Positions 46,694 through 54,928 are shown, numbered from the stretch's first letter. The stretch is DNA of 64,000 bases from an uncultured Pseudomonadota bacterium (GCA_902551695.1 CACDEI010000003.1:538-64537); one strand, 5' to 3'. Notes: generated by a model from the sequence alone, not told the origin. Numbers and translations are program-made.

Positions 46694-47605
46694 TTAATTA
46701 CGGCCATACTGCAAAGGAAAATGGACAGTTACTAATACTCCATCATTGCGCTGTGCAAGCTCTCGCATGAGAGTCGAGAATCGGTCTCCCACGCCCCAAG
46801 GAAAGGCAATCCCGTGAATCTGAGCGCTTTTATATTTTTTGTCTTTTTTTTGATTCAGAATTTGAATTCTTGTTATGACGTCGTCGTAGGAAGGTCCCGT
46901 AAAATCATCACCCATTACATAGATTGAAATTCCGCCTGGAACATTGGAGTGAAACCTTAAGGCCTTCTCTAGTCCTTTTGTGGGATTGCTATTAGAAAAG
47001 GAATTCCATCTTTTCAGCTTTTCAGAAATTCTTTGCCGGGTTATCTGCGTGTCTGGAACCCATCTGGAAGAATAGCCTTGCAACAGATAATCTCCATTAT
47101 CACTCATTATTTGGATTCCTTTGACCTTCGGATGAATCGATAGGATGGTATCGATTTGTTTTTCGACTGTGGCCCAGAATCTTTTCATGCTCCCAGAAGT
47201 GTCGAGGATAAAAACAACATACTCTCTTTCGACCGGGATTCCTCCAGCGTAGATGGACTCAATGGGCTTAATATTGGAATGGTTCGGAACTGAAGGTTTC
47301 TTTTCCGACTGGATCGATGAGATTTCCACGTCTTTTTTTTCTTCGACTAATGTCATTAGTTGTACTTCGAGATCACGCTTTCTACGATTTAGATCGTTAA
47401 TCTCGTTTTCCAGGTTTCTTATTTTTGTTTTGACTTGCGTTTCAGATGAGGTTCTTGCTTCCGGTTTGAATAACTCTGCCTCAATAGGATCAAATTTTGA
47501 ATCCTTGGCAATAATGACTAGCATAATCACAGCACCAAACCCGCACGATATGATATCTAAAAACGACATACCGACATCAAAATTGGAGCGCTGTTTTATT
47601 TTCAT
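46694..47605 (-). CDS. ExbD/TolR-like TM (conserved Asp) plus coiled coil plus vWA (MIDAS) protein, paralog 2
   Basis: The ATG at 47605 overlaps the upstream stop (ATGA). The TM SFLDIISCGFGAVIMLVIIA resembles ExbD PFIDVMLVLL. A coiled coil follows. The vWA domain has DTSGS, NPTKG and a YVMGDD MIDAS set. Confidence 0.7.
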   Translation of the reverse strand: MKIKQRSNFDVGMSFLDIISCGFGAVIMLVIIAKDSKFDPIEAELFKPEARTSSETQVKTKIRNLENEINDLNRRKRDLEVQLMTLVEEKKDVEISSIQSEKKPSVPNHSNIKPIESIYAGGIPVEREYVVFILDTSGSMKRFWATVEKQIDTILSIHPKVKGIQIMSDNGDYLLQGYSSRWVPDTQITRQRISEKLKRWNSFSNSNPTKGLEKALRFHSNVPGGISIYVMGDDFTGPSYDDVITRIQILNQKKDKKYKSAQIHGIAFPWGVGDRFSTLMRELAQRNDGVLVTVHFPLQYGRN

Positions 47606-48621
47606 TTTAACCAATAACTTGCGGGTGAAAAGAGAGTGCCACCGGTCGAGTTTGCCCAATGTAGGTAATTGTGCGCGGCTCTTGGATCGCCCTCTAGAGC
47701 TAATAAGATAACGTTTACTTTCACACTGGATTGGTTGCCGAATTTGTTAATTGCCTCTAAGAAAAATGTTTCCCTACATTCACCGCTAACGTATTGCGAG
47801 TTGGAGTTTCTGCATCCCTTTATAAACTTCCCAATAGCTCTTATTGGGTTGGTCTGCCCCGAGAGGGTAGGAAGACCGTCAGTGACAAGATAGATATCAG
47901 TAGCTTCGGAAGAACTACTTTGAATATGCTCGAGAACAGTCGCGAGGCTAGTTCCATTTTTAGGTGAAATGTTCTTTATGCTCGTATTGAATTGGTTGAG
48001 TGTAGAAACACTATCCCCCCACGAGGAACTCTCGAAGGTTATTTTCTCCGAAAATCCGATAACCTTTAGTAGACTAGAATCCGGAGCTTTTTTTATAAGC
48101 CACCGAGTGATGTTTTTCGCTTGACGCCATTTTCTTCCCGACGCTAGTCTTTTGCCTGACATGTCCTCTAACCCACTTAAAATATCAATAAGCTGGGGAA
48201 AAGCCATCGATGCGCTGGTATCTAGCAGGATCTGTATTTTCGGTCCTGTTACTGCCAAGCCAATGAGTTGATTTGCCACATCTATGTCTTTTCTTTGGGG
48301 TTCTGGTTCAGCAGTTTTATCAATATCTTGCAGTTTTAATTTTGTCTCTAATAGCTTCACAGTTGAGTCACTTACTTTTTTTGAGAGCCTTTTTATTTCA
48401 TTAAGTTTCGAATTTTTTGCATCCAGCATTGCTGCATACTTTTCCTCTAAGTGAACAGTGTTATTCTCTATGGCGGGGCCATTAATTATTTGCGGGACGG
48501 ATTCTTCATTAAAGTCAAGGATGAAAAAGAGTAGGATGACCGCGCCAAGACCGCAGGCCATCACGTCAATAAAAGCTAAGGTAGATATGTTTGTTTCACG
48601 TTTTTGTCGCACGTTACGCAC
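47602..48621 (-). CDS. ExbD/TolR-like TM (conserved Asp) plus coiled coil plus vWA (MIDAS) protein, paralog 1
   Basis: The TM is AFIDVMACGLGAVILLFFIL, followed by a coiled coil. The vWA domain has DTSAS, NGTSL and a LVTDG MIDAS set. The start lies 4 nt after the stop of the MotA-like gene. Confidence 0.7.
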   Translation of the reverse strand: MRNVRQKRETNISTLAFIDVMACGLGAVILLFFILDFNEESVPQIINGPAIENNTVHLEEKYAAMLDAKNSKLNEIKRLSKKVSDSTVKLLETKLKLQDIDKTAEPEPQRKDIDVANQLIGLAVTGPKIQILLDTSASMAFPQLIDILSGLEDMSGKRLASGRKWRQAKNITRWLIKKAPDSSLLKVIGFSEKITFESSSWGDSVSTLNQFNTSIKNISPKNGTSLATVLEHIQSSSSEATDIYLVTDGLPTLSGQTNPIRAIGKFIKGCRNSNSQYVSGECRETFFLEAINKFGNQSSVKVNVILLALEGDPRAAHNYLHWANSTGGTLFSPASYWLK

Positions 48622-48625
48622 ATAT

Positions 48626-49387
48626 TTATTTGGAAATACTAATTCGCTCGATCAGATATTTTTCGCAATATTCCTGTACTTTCACCAGTTGCTCGTCCTG
48701 ATTTTTTTGTAAGAATGAAAGTAATAGCATTATAACTACGCTGGCTAATAATGCGACGAAGGTAGAATTGAAGGCGGTTCCCAGACTTTCGGTCATTGGT
48801 CCGATATCGCCTGCTACAGCATTTTGCGCTTGACTCATCGCCATTCCTATCCCTCTGACCGTGCCTAAAAAGCCGATAGATGGGATTGCCCAGACTATGT
48901 ATTTAATAACTGCAAGCTCAGCCTCATTTTTCACTGCCATCGCTTCTAAGGCTGGAGAGATCGATTCAGACGCATTTTGCACGCTTCCAGTTATCATGTA
49001 TCGACGAAGGGAAGAGGCTATGGTTTGTACTAAAGGTGCTGATCGGATTTCTTGAGGGAGAGCGTCTATTGAACTTAAAATATTCTTAGTATCTTTTTCG
49101 TTGTCTTGTATGTCTTTGAGTAGATCTACATCGAATAAGTAATCCCTAGAGGATGTTTCGTAGAACTTGCTGGCGGTTAGGTATAGGCCCCATAGAAAAA
49201 GAATAATCGCGATTTCTTGCTCAATATCTTTTACTATTATAAAGAAATTCCTTGGTAGTAGGTCACCGGTACTCTTGGCCATTATTTGTAAGTGGTTTAC
49301 TTCTGGTATTATCCACATTGTATATAGAAGATGAACCGTTAAAATTATACCAATTAGAACGACAATATTTGTTGTGGTCTTTTTCAT
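48626..49387 (-). CDS. MotA/TolQ/ExbB-family proton channel protein
   Basis: 253 aa. The C-terminal signature is IPSIGFLGTVRGIGMAMSQA...MTESLGTAFNSTFVALLASVVIM. Confidence 0.8.
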   Translation of the reverse strand: MKKTTTNIVVLIGIILTVHLLYTMWIIPEVNHLQIMAKSTGDLLPRNFFIIVKDIEQEIAIILFLWGLYLTASKFYETSSRDYLFDVDLLKDIQDNEKDTKNILSSIDALPQEIRSAPLVQTIASSLRRYMITGSVQNASESISPALEAMAVKNEAELAVIKYIVWAIPSIGFLGTVRGIGMAMSQAQNAVAGDIGPMTESLGTAFNSTFVALLASVVIMLLLSFLQKNQDEQLVKVQEYCEKYLIERISISK

Positions 49388-49391
49388 GTGC

Positions 49392-49517
49392 TCACATGTT
49401 TCTTGGAAATGGTGTCGGCTCGTTAAGCGATATATTTTTGTTTGATTTCGAATATATAGTTTGAGTTAGAAGTATTAGGAAGAACAAAAGGACAATCATT
49501 TTCCAGAAAGTTTTCAT
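49392..49517 (-). CDS. Possible 41-aa single-TM micro-protein inside the operon gap
   Basis: Manual translation gives MKTFWKMIVLLFFLILLTQTIYSKSNKNISLNEPTPFPRNM*. It starts 12 nt after the upstream stop and ends 4 nt before the MotA-like ATG. There is no clear Shine-Dalgarno. Confidence 0.3.
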   Translation of the reverse strand: MKTFWKMIVLLFFLILLTQTIYSKSNKNISLNEPTPFPRNM

Positions 49518-49529
49518 TGGTTTTCTACT

Positions 49530-51554
49530 CTAATTAATATAGCGAGCTATACGAAATCCTACGTCAATTCTTCCGTCATTTGAAGTATCTTTGTAAGATG
49601 CCCTTAACTCAGTCCAACTGGCAGATAAATAGTTTGATCCTTTGATGACGTGACTAGCACCCTTGGGTTTCCCCATATAGTCAAAATATACCTTAGTTAC
49701 TTCAGGTGGGTCGAGCAAATAGAAGTCGTGTGTCCACTCGCTTACATTCCCAGACTGATCATGTAGGCCAGATATTTCCGCATCAAAACTACCCGATGGT
49801 GCTATACCCGCGAAGCCATCATTATATTCTCCTAAAAATATTTTAACTGTTCCCTTCGCGGATTCGTCTGCAATATTTCCGGCGGCTTCTGGAACTTCAT
49901 AATCGTTTCCCCAAACAAAGGTGGTAGGTGCCTTTTTTCCTGCCGCTCGAGCCACGTATTCCCATTCTGCTTCTGTAGGTAGCCTATAACCAAGCGAAGA
50001 CTTATCGAAGCCTATTATTCTAGACTGCCTGCTAATGTAAAATGGCTCGAATCCTTCTTTTAAACTTAGCCAGTTACAGAAGGTTGCTGCCTCTTCCCAG
50101 CTTATTGAACGAACTGGTAAACGACTACCCTTAGGCGCAAGAGAAGAATTGGAGTTCTCGTTTTCAAAGATAGCATATTGTTTCTCTGTTATTTCAAACT
50201 TCCCTATATAAAAGGCTCGAGTAAAATCTACCTTCCGTAAGTGCTCGTTGGCTCGTTGACCTTTTTGATTCCTAGGAGCGCCGATCTTAATTTTTGAAGG
50301 GATGAACCGGTTCATTACAATTCCCATTGAATTCTTTACGGAAGGTTGGCTATTTGCAAGTCTATAATCACTCACAGTAGTAAGCTTCCTGTCGTGACGG
50401 ATTTTCTTGTTAGCTTCGATAGCGATTGTTTTAGAATCCTCAATATAATTCGGAGCTTTCAGGGTAATGAGATGTTGCTTTGCGAGTAATTTAGCATTCA
50501 TTGGGGTTTCGCCAACTAGTTCACCCTCTATGAAAACTTTCGATTTCGGCGAAGAAAGTATCTCAACTGAACCGTAAATAGGTTTTAATTTGAAACTAAT
50601 TTTTTTGTCATCAGGATAAACCACTATAGTTTCCCCCTGGTGGCCTCCAGCCTCATAACGGACCAGACTTTGCTCAATCGCATCTATACTGATTTCTGAG
50701 GTGATTTTGCGATATCTGTTGTTGATAAATAATCGACCAGCCGGAGGGTGAAATTTAGCGCTTACGAGTCTGGTTTTTTTGGCTAATGAATATGTTCTGT
50801 CCACGATTGTCTTTTCATTTTTAGTATCTATAGCTTGTGAAATGGATTTATATCCAGTTTTTTCTATACGTAAGTTAATTTTCCCGGCTTCTAAAATTCC
50901 TTTCCACGGACTGTTCCCTACTAACTCATCATCGATAAAAATCTTAGCGTCAGTCGGCCTTGTCTTTATCGTAAAAGAGACAGATTTCAAATGAGTGTCA
51001 ACCCGAATCATGGGAGACGTGACTGGTTTTATAGAAACCAACTGTTCATCTGCAGTATGGTAATCAGAGGAAAGCGCTATTTTATACTCTCCTGGTTTCA
51101 GTTTCAGAATAGGGTTTTGGTCTTCAGATGAAATTATACCGTTGACTATCCATTTAGGGTTGCTCAATTCTACCGCAGAGGTAAGTGATGTGCTCACGGG
51201 TGCATAGCTTAATTTTATTTTGACGATTTTTTCTGGATTTTTTGATGAAATAATTTTCCGTTCCTCGATGAATCCAGGTGCTTGAATTATGATGGTTGTG
51301 CTACCAAAAGGAAGTAGCACGCGGTCGCCGATGGTTATTGAAAAACCTGCTTCTGTTGACAGATTATATGCTTTCTCAGGAACTGGCTGCAGGTGTACTT
51401 TGAAGGAGGTGGCATAGGCGTAGAAGAAAAGCGCGGAAACCAACAGGGATGTTATCCCTGCTATTATGTAAACAATTTTTCTTTTTCTAGTGCTTTTAGC
51501 TTCTTCGATTGCGTTAATAAATTCGTTCACCACAGGTGATCCTTTTCGGCTCAA
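49530..51554 (-). CDS. Membrane-anchored protein with PEGA repeats and an FGE-sulfatase (SUMF1-like) domain
   Basis: An N-terminal TM is followed by at least 3 PEGA-like modules (for example PTDAKIFIDDELVGNSPWKGILEAGKINLRIEKTGYKS). The C-terminal domain carries YIGKFEITEKQY, PVRSISWEEAATFCNWL, RLPTEAEWEYVARAA, GNVSEWTHD and GFRIARY. Confidence 0.8.
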   Translation of the reverse strand: MSRKGSPVVNEFINAIEEAKSTRKRKIVYIIAGITSLLVSALFFYAYATSFKVHLQPVPEKAYNLSTEAGFSITIGDRVLLPFGSTTIIIQAPGFIEERKIISSKNPEKIVKIKLSYAPVSTSLTSAVELSNPKWIVNGIISSEDQNPILKLKPGEYKIALSSDYHTADEQLVSIKPVTSPMIRVDTHLKSVSFTIKTRPTDAKIFIDDELVGNSPWKGILEAGKINLRIEKTGYKSISQAIDTKNEKTIVDRTYSLAKKTRLVSAKFHPPAGRLFINNRYRKITSEISIDAIEQSLVRYEAGGHQGETIVVYPDDKKISFKLKPIYGSVEILSSPKSKVFIEGELVGETPMNAKLLAKQHLITLKAPNYIEDSKTIAIEANKKIRHDRKLTTVSDYRLANSQPSVKNSMGIVMNRFIPSKIKIGAPRNQKGQRANEHLRKVDFTRAFYIGKFEITEKQYAIFENENSNSSLAPKGSRLPVRSISWEEAATFCNWLSLKEGFEPFYISRQSRIIGFDKSSLGYRLPTEAEWEYVARAAGKKAPTTFVWGNDYEVPEAAGNIADESAKGTVKIFLGEYNDGFAGIAPSGSFDAEISGLHDQSGNVSEWTHDFYLLDPPEVTKVYFDYMGKPKGASHVIKGSNYLSASWTELRASYKDTSNDGRIDVGFRIARYIN

Positions 51555-52980
51555 TTGAACCTCGTAGCGGTATTTCCAATTCAGTTATTTTCGTTTTATG
51601 CCCAACACAGGCGCCATACAGCAGGTAAGATCCAGGTTTTAAATCAATTGTTCTCTCTAGTGTAGGCTCTATAAATCCCACACCTTTTATTTCGATTCTC
51701 GTTTTTTCATCTGACTCAATTAACAATGATCTCGGTCGTAAAGTAGTATCAATCAGGATACGCACGTCCTCATATATGGCCGAGAGTTTTTTACTCTTAT
51801 CCCTTATTTCTGAGGATTCTACGAGAATAGTTCTCGCAAAAGATTCAACTTCTGGGTCAGTTAATCGCATGGGGTCTTCTCGTAGCATTGCTAGTTGCTT
51901 AGTGCTCTCAATTATTTTTTTCGATAGATCTAAGCCTTCTATTATTTCTTCATCAGTACTATTTAGCGTTTGTGCGTTATTAAAATGTAATAATGCACTC
52001 TCCCAATCGTCGATCTGCGTGCTTGCTAACGCTTTTTTTTTCCATTGCTTGGAAAGTTTTATATCTCTCTTTACTGTGATTTCTGATTCCAAAGCTTTAG
52101 TAGAAGCTGTGTCCCCGGCCAAGGCTTGAGCTTTCTGAATTTCCACTAAAGCTTCTTCGAAATAACCCAGATCTTTTAGAGCAACTGCCTCTCCAATAAG
52201 CTTGTTGTATTCCTGATTTTTAAAAAATTCCTTTAGGAAAATTTTTCTTTTTATTTGTTCTTCGTTTAGTTTCCCTAATGCTTCGATTTCCTCTAGAGCT
52301 TTTAATTGCGAATTGATGTCGTTAGCTGCGATTGCTTTTCGTAGAAGTTCATACTTGGAGAATAATTTTCGGTTATTGTTTAATTTCTCTTTCCATTCAA
52401 TAACTCGCTCATCTGCGGGAGCTAAACTTTCGACAGATTCGAGATATTTGATTGCTTCGGCATAATTTTTTTCCCAGTAGGCTGATTCAATTCTTTGAAA
52501 ATGACTACTAAGAAGGTTTTCTACGCTATTAATCAGTTCTTCAGCCTCGAGAAGTTTTTTCTTCATGCTAACTGGCTCTATCAACCCATCATTCTGCTGC
52601 GAGTGGGCTAACTCATCCTTAAACCAGGATATTAGTCTTTGAGCATCACCTGCATATGTGTTCTCAGTTTGGTTTGAGTTAACAGACAGAGCAATTTGTG
52701 TCAGCTTCGGTTTTAAAATACTTTCATATTCTTCAAAAAGAGAGAGTCTTTCGGAAGGTTTATGGCGCTGGGTTTTATTAGGTAAAGTGTTTGGGCGGTC
52801 ACCATATTCAGGAATTTCACTTATATCTGTATAACTAATGAATAGAACTGGTAGTAAGACAACTGCACTAACAAAGGCCGTAACTAATAATAGTCTCTTT
52901 CTACCCGTGTTCTTATTTTTAGCCGCTGCAACTAAGACGCCTACCTCCGTTTCCGCATTCTTGTTGCTTTTTTCGATCAT
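51514..52980 (-). CDS. Membrane-anchored helical-repeat (TPR-like) protein with a C-terminal beta domain
   Basis: An N-terminal TM (LLLVTAFVSAVVLLPVLFI) is followed by repeated Y..A...L..A..L-type helices. The C-terminal segment resembles PEGA (IEIKGVGFIEPTLERTIDLKPGSYLL). Confidence 0.55.
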   Translation of the reverse strand: MIEKSNKNAETEVGVLVAAAKNKNTGRKRLLLVTAFVSAVVLLPVLFISYTDISEIPEYGDRPNTLPNKTQRHKPSERLSLFEEYESILKPKLTQIALSVNSNQTENTYAGDAQRLISWFKDELAHSQQNDGLIEPVSMKKKLLEAEELINSVENLLSSHFQRIESAYWEKNYAEAIKYLESVESLAPADERVIEWKEKLNNNRKLFSKYELLRKAIAANDINSQLKALEEIEALGKLNEEQIKRKIFLKEFFKNQEYNKLIGEAVALKDLGYFEEALVEIQKAQALAGDTASTKALESEITVKRDIKLSKQWKKKALASTQIDDWESALLHFNNAQTLNSTDEEIIEGLDLSKKIIESTKQLAMLREDPMRLTDPEVESFARTILVESSEIRDKSKKLSAIYEDVRILIDTTLRPRSLLIESDEKTRIEIKGVGFIEPTLERTIDLKPGSYLLYGACVGHKTKITELEIPLRGSIEPKRITCGERIY

Positions 52981-52988
52981 TTTTTAGG

Positions 52989-54248
52989 TTAAAGGGTGAT
53001 ATCGGGCGTTTTGTCTAGCTCATACAGATCTTTTAGAAAGCGCTTCCAGATTTGATATTGTTCAGCTGCATCGCCTTTCAGCTCTATTGTTTGTTCTTCA
53101 AAATTAATTACTTTAGGTGCTAGTTGGATATTTAATGATCTGCCCAACTCATTCATGCTCGCTTTGTACATCTTTGCATCTGCGGAATCACTCATTCCGC
53201 TTCCTATTGTCGCGACACCAGCCGCCGCAACAAGGGTTCCGCCAAGTGCTTGCCCCCCTCCGCTGAAGGGGTCGGAGGTAGCGACGAGAGCGATTCCACC
53301 CGCGACTGCTGCGGCTCCCAAAAGTTTTTTACCGATTCCCTTTAATTTTGCTTTTCTGGCTGCTTTACTTTCGAAGTAAGACTCCCGTTGCCACAAACTG
53401 TATTCTTCCCACATTTGACGCGAGAAATTGTCATAGTCCTGTTGCAAATTGTCTACAAAAAGCAAATCTCTTACCCTGAGCTCTTCGGTTCTTCTTAGCA
53501 TCCTGTCTTCATCTGCAGGTGCGGATGTAAGCCGGGTAATTCCTCTCTTGGATGTTTCTAAGTAGGGTGAGAAATATTCTGGTGAAAAACTTTCAGCGAA
53601 CCTTAATGTTTCTATAGTTTGTAAGGTATTCATTTTATCTGAGGGTAATTTTCTTAGGATTCTCGCAATGTCACTAGCGATTTTTTCGAAAAGTGGATCA
53701 TAAAGATCATAGCTGGAATCATTTCTAGGGTTGTTCAACTCGTACTCTTTAACTCGATGTTTATATAACTTATCCTGGAGCAAGGTCTCTCCATTGATGG
53801 CGGTTAAAGAAACAGAAATTTCAATATCTTCGCCGTTCGAGTCTACTATTTTTCCCGATAAATAAAGGTCTCCTGTTGCGGTTTTATCGGGGACCACCCG
53901 AGCGGATTCGAAAGTATTCGTGTTATTGAGGGCATCTCTAAGTTTGACAGCAAAGTGATTTGCCTCAGCACGCCGTAACTCCGGCCAAATATTTTTTTTG
54001 GTGAATTCGTCGGAATTTTCAGGAATATTTGGATCAAGAGGTAGCACAAGAATCGATAAATCAGTTCGCTTTGTCTGTGAGCTCCCAACGGATGATTTGG
54101 GTTCCGATCCATAGCTGGGACCTACGGAATACCCTTTTTGAGAACTAGATTTTCCCGTCGTTGTTACACACCCATTCAAGAAAATCGCGAGGGTGCACAT
54201 TCCCAGTAAAATTCTGGGTTCTAAAAAACGATTAGAAGTAGTCATCAT
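52989..54248 (-). CDS. Lipoprotein with a C-terminal glycine-zipper segment
   Basis: The lipobox is FLNGC. ILVLPLDPN plus a sandwich-like N-domain recalls the CsgG/LpoB-type lipoprotein fold. A Gly/Ala-rich stretch reads LLGAAAVAGGIALVATSDPFSGGGQALGGTLVAAAGVATIGSG. The start overlaps the upstream stop as ATGA. Confidence 0.55.
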   Translation of the reverse strand: MMTTSNRFLEPRILLGMCTLAIFLNGCVTTTGKSSSQKGYSVGPSYGSEPKSSVGSSQTKRTDLSILVLPLDPNIPENSDEFTKKNIWPELRRAEANHFAVKLRDALNNTNTFESARVVPDKTATGDLYLSGKIVDSNGEDIEISVSLTAINGETLLQDKLYKHRVKEYELNNPRNDSSYDLYDPLFEKIASDIARILRKLPSDKMNTLQTIETLRFAESFSPEYFSPYLETSKRGITRLTSAPADEDRMLRRTEELRVRDLLFVDNLQQDYDNFSRQMWEEYSLWQRESYFESKAARKAKLKGIGKKLLGAAAVAGGIALVATSDPFSGGGQALGGTLVAAAGVATIGSGMSDSADAKMYKASMNELGRSLNIQLAPKVINFEEQTIELKGDAAEQYQIWKRFLKDLYELDKTPDITL

Positions 54249-54928
54249 AATTCCTCGTATCTTCGCATAAGCGCCTCTTTTACATCTGGATCATTTTCCT
54301 GTTCAGCTCTGGCTTTGATTTGCTCTTTTAAAATTTGCGTGTTGTTTGATTTCTCTAAGGTTTCATGAGCGCGACCTTGCAAAGGGGGTGGCGCCGCTAA
54401 GTCTGATTCTGTAGAGAGCGCTTCTAGGTCCTGATTGAAATTCTCGAGCATCAATCCTCCCTTATCGGTTAATGCTACAGAGTTCTCTCCTGATTCTAGG
54501 ATGTTGGAGGAAAGTGAGACATCTGCGGTTGAAGAGATTATCGTTTTAGATTTTCCCCCTTGGCTAACCTCTTCGCTTGGACTTGAAGGAGATTCACTCG
54601 AGGAGGACCCGAATTGGCTGCTAGAATCGGAATCATTTAGCTGTTCTATGCTGCTCGAGTCCACATTTTCACTGTCGCATTGCTGAAATTTGGATAGCTC
54701 AACAGAGAAGTCACTGCTTAAAGTTTTGAGCTTTTCCTCTCTCGTTAACGGGCCTAGAGCGCTGTTTTTGTGATCAATCTCGGCACATTCGGAAAACGCA
54801 GAGGGATTCGCGCTAGCTGCTGAGATCTTAAAACAAGAAAGAAATAATAAAATAACCATCGAGCAGTGCAGTAGTGGAACTTTTTTCTCTGCAATATTTG
54901 CGGGTTGGTTATAGTATGATTTAGCCAA
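54245..54928 (-). CDS. Acidic Ser-rich secreted protein (first gene of the operon)
   Basis: A signal peptide (VILLFLSCFKISAASA) is followed by a low-complexity acidic/Ser tract and a C-terminal amphipathic helix. Confidence 0.45.
   Translation of the reverse strand: MAKSYYNQPANIAEKKVPLLHCSMVILLFLSCFKISAASANPSAFSECAEIDHKNSALGPLTREEKLKTLSSDFSVELSKFQQCDSENVDSSSIEQLNDSDSSSQFGSSSSESPSSPSEEVSQGGKSKTIISSTADVSLSSNILESGENSVALTDKGGLMLENFNQDLEALSTESDLAAPPPLQGRAHETLEKSNNTQILKEQIKARAEQENDPDVKEALMRRYEEL

What the first reader, a model, noticed from the sequence alone, without database searches (positions are those of the whole stretch)
46694..48621. Two stator-B-like paralogs whose periplasmic module is a complete-MIDAS vWA domain instead of a peptidoglycan-binding or TolR-type domain
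Both proteins begin with a short basic tail and one TM carrying an Asp in an ExbD/TolR-like context. The TMs are AFIDVMACGLGAVILLFF and SFLDIISCGFGAVIMLVI, compared with the canonical PFIDVMLVLL. That Asp is the protonatable residue of ExbD/TolR/MotB partners.

Each continues into a predicted coiled coil, in the position of the MotB plug/linker. Each then has a vWA fold with all MIDAS elements. Paralog 1 has DTSAS, NGTSL and LVTDG. Paralog 2 has DTSGS, NPTKG and YVMGDD.

With N-in topology the vWA domains face the periplasm. Two different B-type subunits directly follow a single A-type channel gene. This suggests either a heteromeric 5:1:1 stator or alternative stators with different ligands.
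Basis: partly seen in the sequence, partly recalled or inferred. Interest (0 to 1): 0.78.

Follow-up and report, generated by a model that had tools for sequence, protein, structure and literature searches.

The report
vWA-headed axle pair of a TolQ-like motor
Two neighbouring genes encode membrane-anchored proteins that most likely form the central axle of a proton-driven TolQ/ExbB-like motor and carry metal-dependent adhesion (vWA) heads in the periplasm; this design was already predicted in a 2025 paper, its function is untested, and here it sits in a conserved eight-gene envelope cassette.

Summary
On the minus strand, 47602-48621 (339 aa) and 46694-47605 (303 aa; true start is M19 of the listed ORF) encode paralogs. 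Each has a basic tail, one TM helix with an invariant Asp, a ~47-residue helix and a vWA domain. They directly follow a MotA/TolQ/ExbB-family gene.

Charge bias and an invariant Cys pair place the vWA domains in the periplasm. vWA-1 has all five MIDAS residues invariant.

HMM and profile tests do not show that the TM helix is homologous to ExbD/TolR. The B-subunit reading rests on context:
- no tolR/exbD gene nearby
- universal pairing of the two paralogs
- an ATGA start/stop overlap
- matched stalk lengths

This is not new. PMC12204202 (Mol Biol Evol 2025) describes the same "trans-pore-helix vWA" family next to tolQ-like genes, mostly in heterologous pairs, seeded on Idiomarina loihiensis. 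Idiomarina contigs carry the same cassette.

What I add is a collinear eight-gene cassette, self-contained in ~80 genomes: secreted protein, lipoprotein, TPR protein, PEGA plus non-catalytic PorK-like FGE-fold protein, a small ORF ending ISLNSPxSFPVDI, the motor gene and two vWA genes. Function remains untested.

The parts
54245..54928 (-). g1: secreted or signal-anchored protein (227 aa in the longest ORF; start uncertain). The middle is low-complexity and Ser-rich. There is a conserved Cys and a conserved C-terminal helix.
   Evidence: Hydrophobic N-terminal segment. A homologous ORF of about 213 aa sits at the same position in 63 of 80 loci. No Pfam, NCBIfam or PADLOC family.
52989..54248 (-). 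g2: lipoprotein (419 aa) with an invariant lipobox Cys27 and a Gly/Ala-rich hydrophobic stretch near residues 310-360.
   Evidence: C27 is invariant in alignment A5. Present in 67 of 80 loci. No Pfam family in any of 19 members.
51514..52980 (-). g3: bitopic inner-membrane protein (488 aa) with TPR repeats and a conserved C-terminal beta-rich module.
   Evidence: Weak TPR_1/TPR_2 hits. One TM segment at residues 30-48. Present in 71 of 80 loci.
49530..51554 (-). g4: bitopic protein (674 aa) with an N-terminal TM, PEGA domains and a C-terminal FGE-sulfatase-fold domain that lacks both catalytic cysteines (PorK/GldK-like).
   Evidence: Pfam FGE-sulfatase E=2.8e-33 and PEGA E=3.3e-20. NCBIfam best hit is GldK/PorK at 1.2e-18, below its cutoff. 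PDB hits include PorK at 1.3e-8, and the positions aligned to FGE C336/C341 are Ser and Thr. No Cys at either position in 71 family members. Present in 74 of 80 loci.
49392..49517 (-). g4b: small conserved ORF (41 aa), below the 60-aa minimum used in the ORF listing, with a signal-peptide-like N-terminus and the conserved C-terminal tail ISLNEPTPFPRNM. Most genomes have ISLNSPxSFPVDI.
   Evidence: Translation. A small ORF with this tail lies between g4 and g5 in nearly all loci. The C-terminal motif occurs exactly once on the cassette strand in 74 of 83 sequences and never on the opposite strands. It was called as a 35-aa gene in Idiomarina locus L081.
48626..49387 (-). g5: MotA/TolQ/ExbB-family channel subunit (253 aa, 3 TM segments), the presumed pentameric A subunit.
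   Evidence: PF01618 E=2e-12. TM segments at 9-27, 159-177 and 208-226. The motif WAIPSIGFxGTVRGIG is almost fully invariant and FNST is invariant. GTVRG aligns to ExbB GTVWG, so T176 corresponds to ExbB T148 (weak). Present in 78 of 80 loci.
47602..48621 (-). g6 / vWA-1 (339 aa): trans-pore helix with Asp19, a helical stalk and a vWA domain with a complete MIDAS.
   Evidence: VWA_2 E=3.8e-7, above the cutoff. Invariant D19, D134, S136, S138, T224, D248, C270 and C282. AF2 model. Foldseek vWA matches.
48511..48585 (-). vWA-1 TM / trans-pore helix (residues 13-37). The Asp19 codon is 48565-48567.
   Evidence: AF2 helix 13-37. Hydropathy peak at 17-35. Motif AFIDVMACGLGA is conserved.
48316..48459 (-). 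vWA-1 long helix (residues 55-102), a candidate coiled-coil stalk.
   Evidence: AF2 helix with pLDDT in the 90s over most of its length. Homologs carry precomputed hits to what I recognise as coiled-coil Pfam families, such as PF08614 and PF11932.
47605..48261 (-). vWA-1 vWA domain (residues 121-339).
   Evidence: pLDDT above 90 over most of the domain. Foldseek hits to PilB vWA, TFIIH p44, BatB and CLCA1.
46694..47605 (-). g7 / vWA-2 (303 aa from ATG 47605): trans-pore helix with Asp17, a helical stalk and a divergent vWA domain.
   Evidence: ATGA overlap with the g6 stop. Homologs start at this Met. Invariant F15, L16, D17, C21, D135, S137, S139, S204, S206 and D233. The Pfam VWA_2 hit is only E=0.05, but hhalign to vWA-1 gives 99.4% and Foldseek finds vWA matches at E=1.8e-6.
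47504..47563 (-). vWA-2 TM / trans-pore helix (residues 15-34). The Asp17 codon is 47555-47557.
   Evidence: AF2 helix 15-34. Hydropathy peak.
47309..47449 (-). vWA-2 long helix (residues 53-99), a candidate coiled-coil stalk.
   Evidence: AF2 helix with pLDDT of about 88-90 over its central part. Weak coiled-coil Pfam hits at residues 71-112 of the 321-aa ORF.
46706..47251 (-). vWA-2 vWA domain (residues 119-300).
   Evidence: pLDDT of about 90-96. Foldseek hits to ANTXR2/CMG2, TFIIH p34/p44, ITIH1 and C2a vWA domains.

Best explanation
g5, g6 and g7 encode a proton-driven 5:2-type inner-membrane motor of the MotA/ExbB/TolQ superfamily. A pentamer of g5 surrounds a heterodimer made of the N-terminal trans-pore helices of vWA-1 and vWA-2 (5:1:1).

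The invariant Asp19 and Asp17, near the cytoplasmic end of each helix, take up and release protons. They face conserved Thr/Ser residues of g5 (T176 in GTVRG; N207-S208-T209). Proton flow turns the ring relative to the axle.

Each axle subunit continues into the periplasm in four parts:
- an acidic flexible linker
- a helix of about 47 residues, probably a parallel heterodimeric coiled coil about 7 nm long
- a second linker
- a vWA head

The vWA heads replace the peptidoglycan-binding or TolR-type domain of known B subunits. Through their MIDAS metal sites they bind an acidic residue of a periplasmic or outer-membrane partner. That contact either anchors the axle or transmits force.

The partners are most likely products of the same cassette: lipoprotein g2, TPR protein g3, the PEGA / PorK-like FGE-fold protein g4, the small peptide g4b or g1.

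**Shown here:** gene order, domain architecture, topology bias, residue invariance and cassette conservation.

**Inferred:** insertion of the helices in the pentamer, heterodimer formation, rotation, metal binding, and the identity of the ligand and the output.
For: - g5 is a MotA_ExbB family member with three TM segments.
- g6 and g7 follow it with a 4-nt gap and then an ATGA overlap.
- No ExbD/TolR relative is found in the window or in 80 related loci.
- Nothing outside the cassette is conserved.
- The Asp and the adjacent small-residue motif are invariant.
- The Asp lies a few residues into a single N-in TM helix, as in ExbD.
- The positive-inside charge bias is present in 100% of vWA-1 and 86% of vWA-2 family members.
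- vWA-1 has an invariant Cys pair.
- The vWA folds are confident and match solved vWA domains.
- MIDAS residues are invariant and lie at the canonical loop positions after beta1, before the helix at 226-235 (vWA-1) or 209-219 (vWA-2), and after beta4.
- Both paralogs are always present together, and their stalk lengths match.
- PMC12204202 independently reports AlphaFold3 models of the Idiomarina system. In them the helices sit inside the TolQ-like pentamer with the Asp pair ringed by Thr.
- Idiomarina contigs carry orthologs and the same cassette.
Against: - There is no statistically significant sequence link between the TM helix and ExbD/TolR/MotB.
- g5 is very divergent from solved MotA/ExbB/TolQ chains. 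The best PDB profile hit is MotA 6ysl at E=0.35. hhalign to E. coli ExbB gives only 8% probability.
- vWA-2 has Ser instead of the canonical MIDAS Thr.
- There is no experimental evidence for any member of the family. PMC12204202 makes that statement explicitly only for its first vWA family and reports no experiments on this one; my searches found none.
Confidence: 0.72

Rival explanations
1. Alternative stators. g5 forms two different motors, one with a vWA-1 homodimer and one with a vWA-2 homodimer, and each targets a different ligand.
For: The two vWA heads are very different: 16% identity, an insertion and a Cys pair only in vWA-1, and Ser in place of the MIDAS Thr in vWA-2. They probably bind different ligands.
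Against: Both genes are present in every locus with enough flank. They are translationally coupled by ATGA. The duplication predates the spread across Alpha-, Beta-, Gamma-, Zetaproteobacteria, Desulfobacterota-type MAGs and Nitrospirales. Stalk lengths shorten together in the window's clade: 115/115, 115/117, 121/117 and 122/119, against about 135/135 elsewhere.
Confidence: 0.1
2. Not a motor axle. g6 and g7 are ordinary membrane-anchored vWA proteins (BatA/BatB-like scaffolds). Their TM Asp has another role, and g5 acts separately or with a distant TolR/ExbD.
For: HMM tests do not connect the TM helix to ExbD/TolR/MotB. BatB and a B. fragilis aerotolerance-related membrane protein are among the structural matches of vWA-1. 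From my own knowledge, Bat operons also combine paired vWA proteins with TPR proteins.
Against: An invariant charged residue inside a single TM helix, in more than 2000 sequence clusters, is hard to explain without a partner channel. The three genes are tightly linked, and no B-type gene is nearby. No other gene, MoxR-type ATPase or otherwise, is conserved around the cassette. The published AF3 model places the helices in the pentamer.
Confidence: 0.1
3. TonB/TolA-like peripheral transducers. The vWA proteins bind the outside of a g5 pentamer whose pore is filled by something else.
For: PMC12204202 describes a different vWA family that does this, using an SHLS/His motif.
Against: g6 and g7 lack the SHLS/His motif and carry the Asp motif instead. 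No pore-filling TolR/ExbD gene is present.
Confidence: 0.05

Closest known systems
[quoted passage not shown] 4c-d)
   Same: TM-tethered vWA proteins with a conserved Asp in the helix. They lie adjacent to a tolQ-like gene with no tolR/exbD, and mostly occur as heterologous pairs. The family was seeded on Idiomarina loihiensis, and Idiomarina orthologs and the identical cassette were found here.
   Different: Nothing essential; the window locus is another member. The paper's text does not mention the five other conserved cassette genes, the stalk-length match, or the Ser-for-Thr MIDAS variant in the second paralog. Its Fig. 4c could not be viewed.
ExbB-ExbD / TolQ-TolR 5:2 motors
   Same: The A subunit has three TM segments, belongs to PF01618 and carries a GTV(W/R)G motif. 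The B subunit has a short basic cytoplasmic tail and one N-in TM helix with an Asp near its cytoplasmic end (F-I/L-D-V-M in both). No separate plug helix was identified.
   Different: The periplasmic domain is a coiled-coil stalk plus vWA instead of the ExbD/TolR alpha/beta domain. There is no TonB/TolA partner gene. The TM helix has a distinctive small-residue motif (D-V-M-A-C-G-L-G-A). Homology of the helix is not demonstrable. The B subunits are two diverged paralogs.
MotA-MotB / PomA-PomB flagellar stators
   Same: The same superfamily of A subunit, and a B-subunit TM Asp.
   Different: g5 has 3 TM segments, not 4. There is no OmpA-like peptidoglycan-binding domain and no flagellar context.
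GldLM/PorLM motor with the PorK/GldK-PorN ring (type IX secretion and gliding)
   Same: An inner-membrane ion-driven motor whose bitopic subunit spans the periplasm without binding peptidoglycan. It is encoded next to a protein with a non-catalytic FGE-sulfatase fold; g4 hits GldK/PorK.
   Different: g5 belongs to PF01618. From memory, not tested here, GldL is a different 2-TM protein. g4 is TM-anchored with PEGA domains rather than a lipoprotein. No GldM/GldN-like proteins are present. The taxa are Proteobacteria and Nitrospirales, not Bacteroidota.
AglR-AglQ/AglS (Myxococcus gliding) and other systems with two different TolR/ExbD-type subunits
   Same: One A-type gene with two different B-type genes, which suggests a 5:1:1 motor. 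This rests on my own knowledge and on the remark in PMC12204202 about pairs of heterologous tolR-like genes.
   Different: Those B subunits have TolR-type periplasmic domains, not vWA.
BatA/BatB vWA proteins of the Bacteroides aerotolerance operon
   Same: Membrane-anchored vWA paralog pairs encoded with TPR proteins. BatB is a structural match.
   Different: From my own knowledge, Bat operons contain a MoxR ATPase and no MotA/TolQ gene. No trans-pore Asp motif is known for them.

Membership tests
MotA/TolQ/ExbB proton channel family (PF01618), for g5 | Significant match to the family profile, above the curated cutoff | tested here: met
   E=2e-12, 47.4 bits against a cutoff of 22.9.
MotA/TolQ/ExbB proton channel family (PF01618), for g5 | Conserved pore-lining Thr in the G-T-V-x-G motif of the penultimate TM, and polar residues in the last TM | tested here: met
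   GTVRG and FNST are invariant in 27 sequences. T176 aligns with ExbB T148, but the hhalign probability is only 8%.
ExbD/TolR (PF02472), for g6 and g7 | Match to the family profile, with an ExbD/TolR-type periplasmic domain | tested here: not met
   No Pfam or NCBIfam hit. The periplasmic domain is vWA.
ExbD/TolR (PF02472), for g6 and g7 | Single N-in TM helix with an essential Asp near its cytoplasmic end | tested here: met
   Invariant D19 and D17. Charge bias indicates N-in. The register matches ExbD D25.
ExbD/TolR (PF02472), for g6 and g7 | Statistically supported homology of the TM segment | tested here: inconclusive
   HMM against PDB sequences gives no hit at E<=10. hhalign gives a pairwise E of 0.0055 but a probability of 6.7% over 12 columns.
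MotB/OmpA-type stator B subunits | C-terminal OmpA-like peptidoglycan-binding domain | tested here: not met
   No OmpA or MotB hit. The C-terminus is vWA.
vWA domain (PF13519/PF00092) | vWA fold | tested here: met
   vWA-1: VWA_2 at 31.1 bits against a cutoff of 27. vWA-2 is below the Pfam threshold at 14.7 bits, but hhalign to vWA-1 gives 99.4% and Foldseek finds vWA matches at E=1.8e-6. vWA-1 Foldseek E=1.4e-7.
vWA domain with a perfect MIDAS | D-x-S-x-S plus Thr plus Asp, conserved and at the canonical loops | tested here: met
   vWA-1: D134, S136, S138, T224 and D248 are invariant. They lie after beta1 (128-134), before helix 226-235 and after beta4 (242-247).
vWA domain with a perfect MIDAS | The same five residues, for vWA-2 | tested here: inconclusive
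D135, S137, S139 and D233 are invariant. The Thr position is occupied by invariant S206.
vWA domain with a perfect MIDAS | Metal-site geometry in a 3D model, or actual metal binding | not testable with these tools
   Model coordinates are not exposed, and no metal modelling is available.
TPH-vWA / TolQ-like motor family of PMC12204202 | TM-tethered vWA with a conserved Asp, adjacent to a tolQ-like gene, no tolR/exbD, heterologous pair | tested here: met
   compared with the description.
TPH-vWA / TolQ-like motor family of PMC12204202 | Orthology with the Idiomarina loihiensis seed | tested here: met
   P0117 matches window vWA-1 at E=2.4e-37. It retrieves Idiomarina sp. P0248 (70% identity) and the I. 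loihiensis MAG protein P0273. Idiomarina contigs L081 and L082 show the same cassette. The paper's own accession numbers were not in the held supplements.
TPH-vWA / TolQ-like motor family of PMC12204202 | Helices inserted in the pentamer with the Asp ringed by Thr | not testable with these tools
   Only monomer prediction is available. The paper reports AF3 models.
Zorya or other anti-phage systems | Match to ZorA/ZorB or other defence profiles across the locus | tested here: not met
   g5 gives only weak ZorA hits (1e-5). The other six proteins scanned give none.
Formylglycine-generating enzyme, for g4 | Catalytic Cys pair (human C336/C341) | tested here: not met
   The aligned positions are Ser and Thr in the window. 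No Cys occurs at either position in 71 homologs.

The most novel reading that the evidence does not exclude
The eight-gene cassette (g1, g2, g3, g4, g4b, g5, g6, g7) encodes an uncharacterised class of PMF-powered trans-envelope machine. A rotating heterodimeric coiled-coil axle carries two different vWA heads. Through metal-ion-dependent contacts, the heads engage a PorK-like FGE-fold/PEGA protein, a TPR protein, an outer-membrane lipoprotein and a secreted peptide of about 15 residues ending in ...FPVDI. The output would be distinct from flagellar rotation, Ton/Tol, T9SS/gliding and Zorya.
Probability: 0.4. Interest if true: 0.8.

Novelty: new member of a known kind. Interest (0 to 1): 0.5.

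Why it matters
5:2 ion-driven rotary motors are known to power flagella, TonB-dependent import, Tol-Pal envelope maintenance, type IX secretion and gliding, and Zorya defence. A branch in which the axle itself ends in integrin-like metal-dependent adhesion domains would add a new way of coupling the proton-motive force to the periplasm or outer membrane.

The family is widespread:
- The helix motif alone defines more than 2000 clusters at 50% identity.
- Members occur in marine Gamma-, Alpha-, Beta- and Zetaproteobacteria, in sulfate-reducer-type MAGs and in Nitrospirales.

It has no known function. The cassette defined here gives a concrete list of candidate partners. It also occurs in cultured hosts such as Alteromonas, Pseudoalteromonas, Idiomarina, Methylophaga, Sneathiella and Glaciecola. 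Together these make the question experimentally testable.

The basic idea has already been published as a computational prediction, so the finding is a rediscovery rather than a discovery.

Tried and rejected
- **Anti-phage system (Zorya-like).** PADLOC gives only weak ZorA hits for g5 and nothing for the other six proteins scanned. Rejected.
- **Stalk-formation (sfz) cluster of Zetaproteobacteria.** I considered this because Mariprofundus carries the cassette. The sfz papers never mention von Willebrand domains. Dropped.
- **Sequence link from the TM helix to ExbD/TolR/MotB.**
  - Pfam scans of N-terminal fragments found nothing.
  - A 42-column profile against PDB sequences found nothing.
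  - hhalign against ExbD/TolR N-termini gave only a weak in-register match.
  - The same profile against 1.84 billion representatives returned only the same family among its top 146 hits. The nine short hits I inspected were contig-end fragments, not ExbD-like proteins.
- **g5 family profile against PDB sequences.** No significant hit; MotA 6ysl scored E=0.35.
- **Catalytic FGE in g4.** Rejected.
- **Pfam on the g2 lipoprotein family.** Nothing found.
- **Promoter and terminator scan of the operon.** Counts were at chance level, so it is uninformative.
- **PLSDB plasmid search.** I hoped for an annotated copy, but there was no match.
- **Literature searches for the cassette composition.** Terms covering PEGA, FGE, TolQ and vWA found no relevant description of the cassette.
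- **Supplements of PMC12204202.** The held files do not contain the vWA accession numbers.
Full report
**1. What is at the coordinates.**

On the minus strand, the ORF list shows a run of same-strand genes from 54928 down to 46694. The finding covers the last two.
- vWA-1 is 47602-48621 (339 aa).
- vWA-2 is 46694-47659 as the longest ORF (321 aa).

The second gene almost certainly starts at ATG 47605 (M19 of the ORF), giving 303 aa. This start forms an ATGA overlap with the TGA stop of vWA-1. Homologs begin at the equivalent Met.

The gene directly upstream (48626-49387, 253 aa) hits Pfam MotA_ExbB at E=2e-12, above the curated cutoff. It has three hydrophobic segments, like ExbB/TolQ.

**2.

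*Family size.*
- vWA-1 has hundreds of full-length homologs.
- vWA-2 has at least 7947.
- A 42-column profile of the N-terminal region alone finds 2137 clusters (50% identity) at E<=1e-3 among 1.84 billion representatives. The top 146 all carry the same motif.

*TM Asp.* D19 is invariant in alignment A1. D17 is present in 118 of 118 vWA-2 homologs. The Asp sits in [AS]F[IL]D[VI][MI][AS]CG[LF]GA.

*Structure.* AlphaFold2 models with family alignments give the layout below. The regions between the segments have low confidence.

| | mean pLDDT | TM helix | long helix | vWA domain |
|---|---|---|---|---|
| vWA-1 | 84 | 13-37 | 55-102 | about 121-339 |
| vWA-2 | 81 | 15-34 | 53-99 | about 119-300 |

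Foldseek against the PDB returns vWA domains:
- for vWA-1, the PilB minor pilin, TFIIH p44, BatB and CLCA1
- for vWA-2, ANTXR2/CMG2, ITIH1 and C2a

E-values are about 1e-7 to 1e-6.

Pfam recognises vWA-1 (VWA_2, E=3.8e-7). It barely sees vWA-2 (E=0.05). The two are clear paralogs all the same: hhalign gives 99.4% probability, E=5e-22, 16% identity.

**3. MIDAS.**

In vWA-1, D134, S136, S138, T224 and D248 are all invariant. In the model they sit at the canonical places:
- the end of beta1
- just before helix 226-235
- the end of beta4

In vWA-2, D135, S137, S139 and D233 are invariant.

The profile alignment puts invariant S206 opposite T224 of vWA-1. Paralog 2 therefore has a Ser-for-Thr MIDAS variant. 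I could not measure metal-site geometry because model coordinates are not exposed.

**4. Topology.**

Each protein has one hydrophobic segment.
- Mean net charge of the N-terminal tail is +3.4 (vWA-1 family) and +2.8 (vWA-2 family).
- Mean net charge of the 15 residues after the helix is -2.2 and -1.2.
- The N-tail is the more positive side in 100% and 86% of members.

This predicts N-in/C-out, with the vWA domains in the periplasm. An invariant Cys pair in vWA-1 (C270/C282) fits an oxidising compartment.

**5. Is the TM helix ExbD/TolR/MotB-like?**

The resemblance is by position and motif. ExbD has ...TPFIDVML..., which I verified against PDB entry 6tyi. vWA-1 has ...LAFIDVMA....

Every statistical test failed or was weak:
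- Pfam on the N-terminal fragments gave no hit.
- An HMM search of all PDB sequences gave nothing at E<=10.
- hhalign against ExbD/TolR N-termini aligned Asp to Asp over only 12 columns, with pairwise E=0.0055 and probability 6.7%.

Homology of the helix is therefore not demonstrated. The helix also has its own signature of small residues (C-G-x-G-A) that ExbD, TolR and MotB lack.

**6. Why it is still most likely the B subunit of the neighbouring channel.**
- E. coli ExbD and TolR queries find no relative in the window or in 80 related loci with +/-10 kb flanks.
- g5, g6 and g7 are adjacent and collinear in every locus with enough sequence.
- An invariant acidic residue in a lone TM helix needs a polar partner. 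g5 offers invariant GTVRG and FNST motifs in its last two TM segments. GTVRG aligns with ExbB GTVWG, so T176 corresponds to T148, although the hhalign score is weak.
- An independent paper reached the same conclusion with AlphaFold3 complex models (section 7).

**7. Prior art.**

PMC12204202 is 'Origin and Evolution of Bacterial Periplasmic Force Transducers' (Mol Biol Evol 2025). [quoted passage not shown] - They carry a TolR/ExbD-like trans-pore helix with the conserved proton-binding Asp.
- They are predominantly found in heterologous pairs.
- They occur mainly in Proteobacteria and Verrucomicrobia.
- The family was seeded on Idiomarina loihiensis.
- AF3 models place the Asp pair inside a Thr ring of the pentamer.

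To check that this is the same family, I used P0117, a window vWA-1 relative from Alteromonas (E=2.4e-37).
- It retrieves proteins named Idiomarina sp. and Idiomarina loihiensis (P0248 and P0273).
- Two Idiomarina contigs show the same gene order, with the same Pfam content.

No other paper on this family was found. No experimental data appear to exist.

**8. What the surroundings add.**

The best 80 loci span:
- Gammaproteobacteria (Methylophaga, Glaciecola, Arenicellales, Endobugula, Oceanicoccus)
- Alphaproteobacteria (Sneathiella, Rhodospirillaceae)
- Nitrosomonadaceae
- Zetaproteobacteria (Mariprofundus)
- Desulfocapsaceae
- Nitrospirales

tblastn and ORF clustering show one collinear same-strand cassette. 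Nothing conserved lies outside it.

| Gene | Product | Loci (of 80) |
|---|---|---|
| g1 | secreted protein, about 213 aa | 63 |
| g2 | lipoprotein, about 416 aa | 67 |
| g3 | TM + TPR, about 486 aa | 71 |
| g4 | TM + PEGA + FGE-sulfatase fold, about 673 aa | 74 |
| g5 | MotA/TolQ/ExbB-like channel subunit | 78 |
| g6, g7 | the two vWA proteins | 80 |

Missing genes are mostly explained by contig ends.

g2 has an invariant lipobox Cys and no Pfam family.

g4's FGE-type domain lacks both catalytic cysteines, in the window and in all 71 homologs. Its best named relatives include the T9SS ring protein PorK/GldK. It is therefore a binding or structural domain, not an enzyme.

**9. A small ORF.**

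Between g4 and g5, nearly every locus has a small ORF of 40-65 aa.
- It starts with a basic, hydrophobic, signal-peptide-like segment, often ending in AxA.
- It ends in a strikingly conserved tail, ISLNSPxSFPVDI-stop.

The window copy is 49392-49517, MKTFWKMIVLLFFLILLTQTIYSKSNKNISLNEPTPFPRNM. It is shorter than the 60-aa minimum I used for the ORF listing.

The C-terminal motif occurs exactly once on the cassette strand in 74 of 83 sequences. It never occurs on the opposite strands.

If the signal peptide is cleaved, the product is a periplasmic peptide of about 13-20 residues with a conserved acidic residue next to its C-terminus. That makes it a plausible ligand for a MIDAS site or for a TPR carboxylate clamp. 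This is speculation and was not tested.

**10. Heterodimer or alternative stators.**

The evidence favours one heteromeric 5:1:1 motor.
- The two paralogs always co-occur.
- They are translationally coupled.
- They diverged before the cassette spread.
- The distance from the TM Asp to the first MIDAS Asp is nearly the same in both paralogs of a genome. The mean absolute difference is 3.5 residues, against 5.3 for shuffled pairings, and no shuffle out of 2000 did as well.
- Both stalks are shorter in the window's clade: 115/115, 115/117, 121/117 and 122/119, against about 135/135 elsewhere.

The last point rests on few independent events, so it is only suggestive.

**11. Mechanism proposed.**

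A g5 pentamer surrounds a vWA-1/vWA-2 helix pair. Protonation and deprotonation of Asp19 and Asp17 against the g5 Thr/Ser ring drives relative rotation.

A coiled-coil stalk of about 7 nm, flanked by flexible linkers, presents two different vWA heads in the periplasm. The heads bind cassette partners through MIDAS-coordinated acidic residues. That contact either anchors the axle or passes force towards the outer membrane.

The parallel with PorLM plus PorK is an analogy only. So is the parallel with Bat operons, which also pair two vWA proteins with TPR proteins.

*Shown:* architecture, conservation, topology bias and synteny.

*Inferred:* complex formation, rotation, metal binding, ligands and physiological output.

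**12. Verdict.**

- helix homology is not demonstrable
- the paralog 2 MIDAS is non-canonical
- the metal-site geometry is untested

The kind is already described in the literature as a computational prediction, so this locus is a new member of a known kind. The residual value lies in the eight-gene cassette, the small conserved ORF and the availability of cultured carriers. Together these make a functionally unknown motor family testable.

Noticed in passing
window 49392-49517 (-): A 41-aa ORF, below the 60-aa minimum used in the ORF listing, lies between the PEGA/FGE-fold gene and the MotA-like gene. It has a signal-peptide-like N-terminus and a conserved C-terminal tail (ISLNEPTPFPRNM here, ISLNSPxSFPVDI in most genomes). 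The motif is found once per cassette in 74 of 83 sequences and never on the opposite strands.
   Followed up: partly
window 49530-51554 (-): The FGE-sulfatase-fold domain of the 674-aa PEGA protein lacks both catalytic cysteines; the aligned positions are Ser and Thr. No Cys occurs at either position in 71 homologs. Its named relatives include the T9SS ring protein PorK/GldK. It is therefore probably a structural or binding domain, not an enzyme.
   Followed up: yes
window 52989-54248 (-): The 419-aa protein has an invariant lipobox Cys (C27) and a Gly/Ala-rich hydrophobic stretch near residues 310-360. It matches no Pfam family and is conserved in 67 of 80 loci. It is a candidate outer-membrane partner of the motor.
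   Followed up: partly
window 47602-47605: The vWA-1 stop codon and the vWA-2 start codon overlap as ATGA. The longest-ORF start of vWA-2 (TTG 47659) is probably not used.
   Followed up: yes
window 47602-48621 (-), residues C270 and C282: An invariant Cys pair lies inside a vWA-1-specific insertion and is absent from vWA-2. It is likely a periplasmic disulfide.
   Followed up: partly
loci L001-L080, compared with window 46694-48621: The distance from the TM Asp to the first MIDAS Asp is nearly equal in the two paralogs of each genome. It is shorter in both paralogs in the window's clade (about 115-122 residues, against about 135 elsewhere).
   Followed up: partly
window 51514-52980 (-), C-terminal ~90 residues: The TPR protein ends in a conserved beta-rich segment (consensus ...SD..T.I.VRGVG.VG....K.I.LKPG.Y.FEG...). 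It looks like a PEGA-type or other beta-sandwich module, and Pfam does not recognise it.
   Followed up: no
proteins P0435, P0443, P0452, P0477: A subfamily of the helix motif (NLSFLDIMSCGFGAVVLVFLIIDHS...) is abundant among the top profile hits. I did not place it relative to the vWA-1 and vWA-2 clades. The nine short hits I inspected were contig-end fragments.
   Followed up: no
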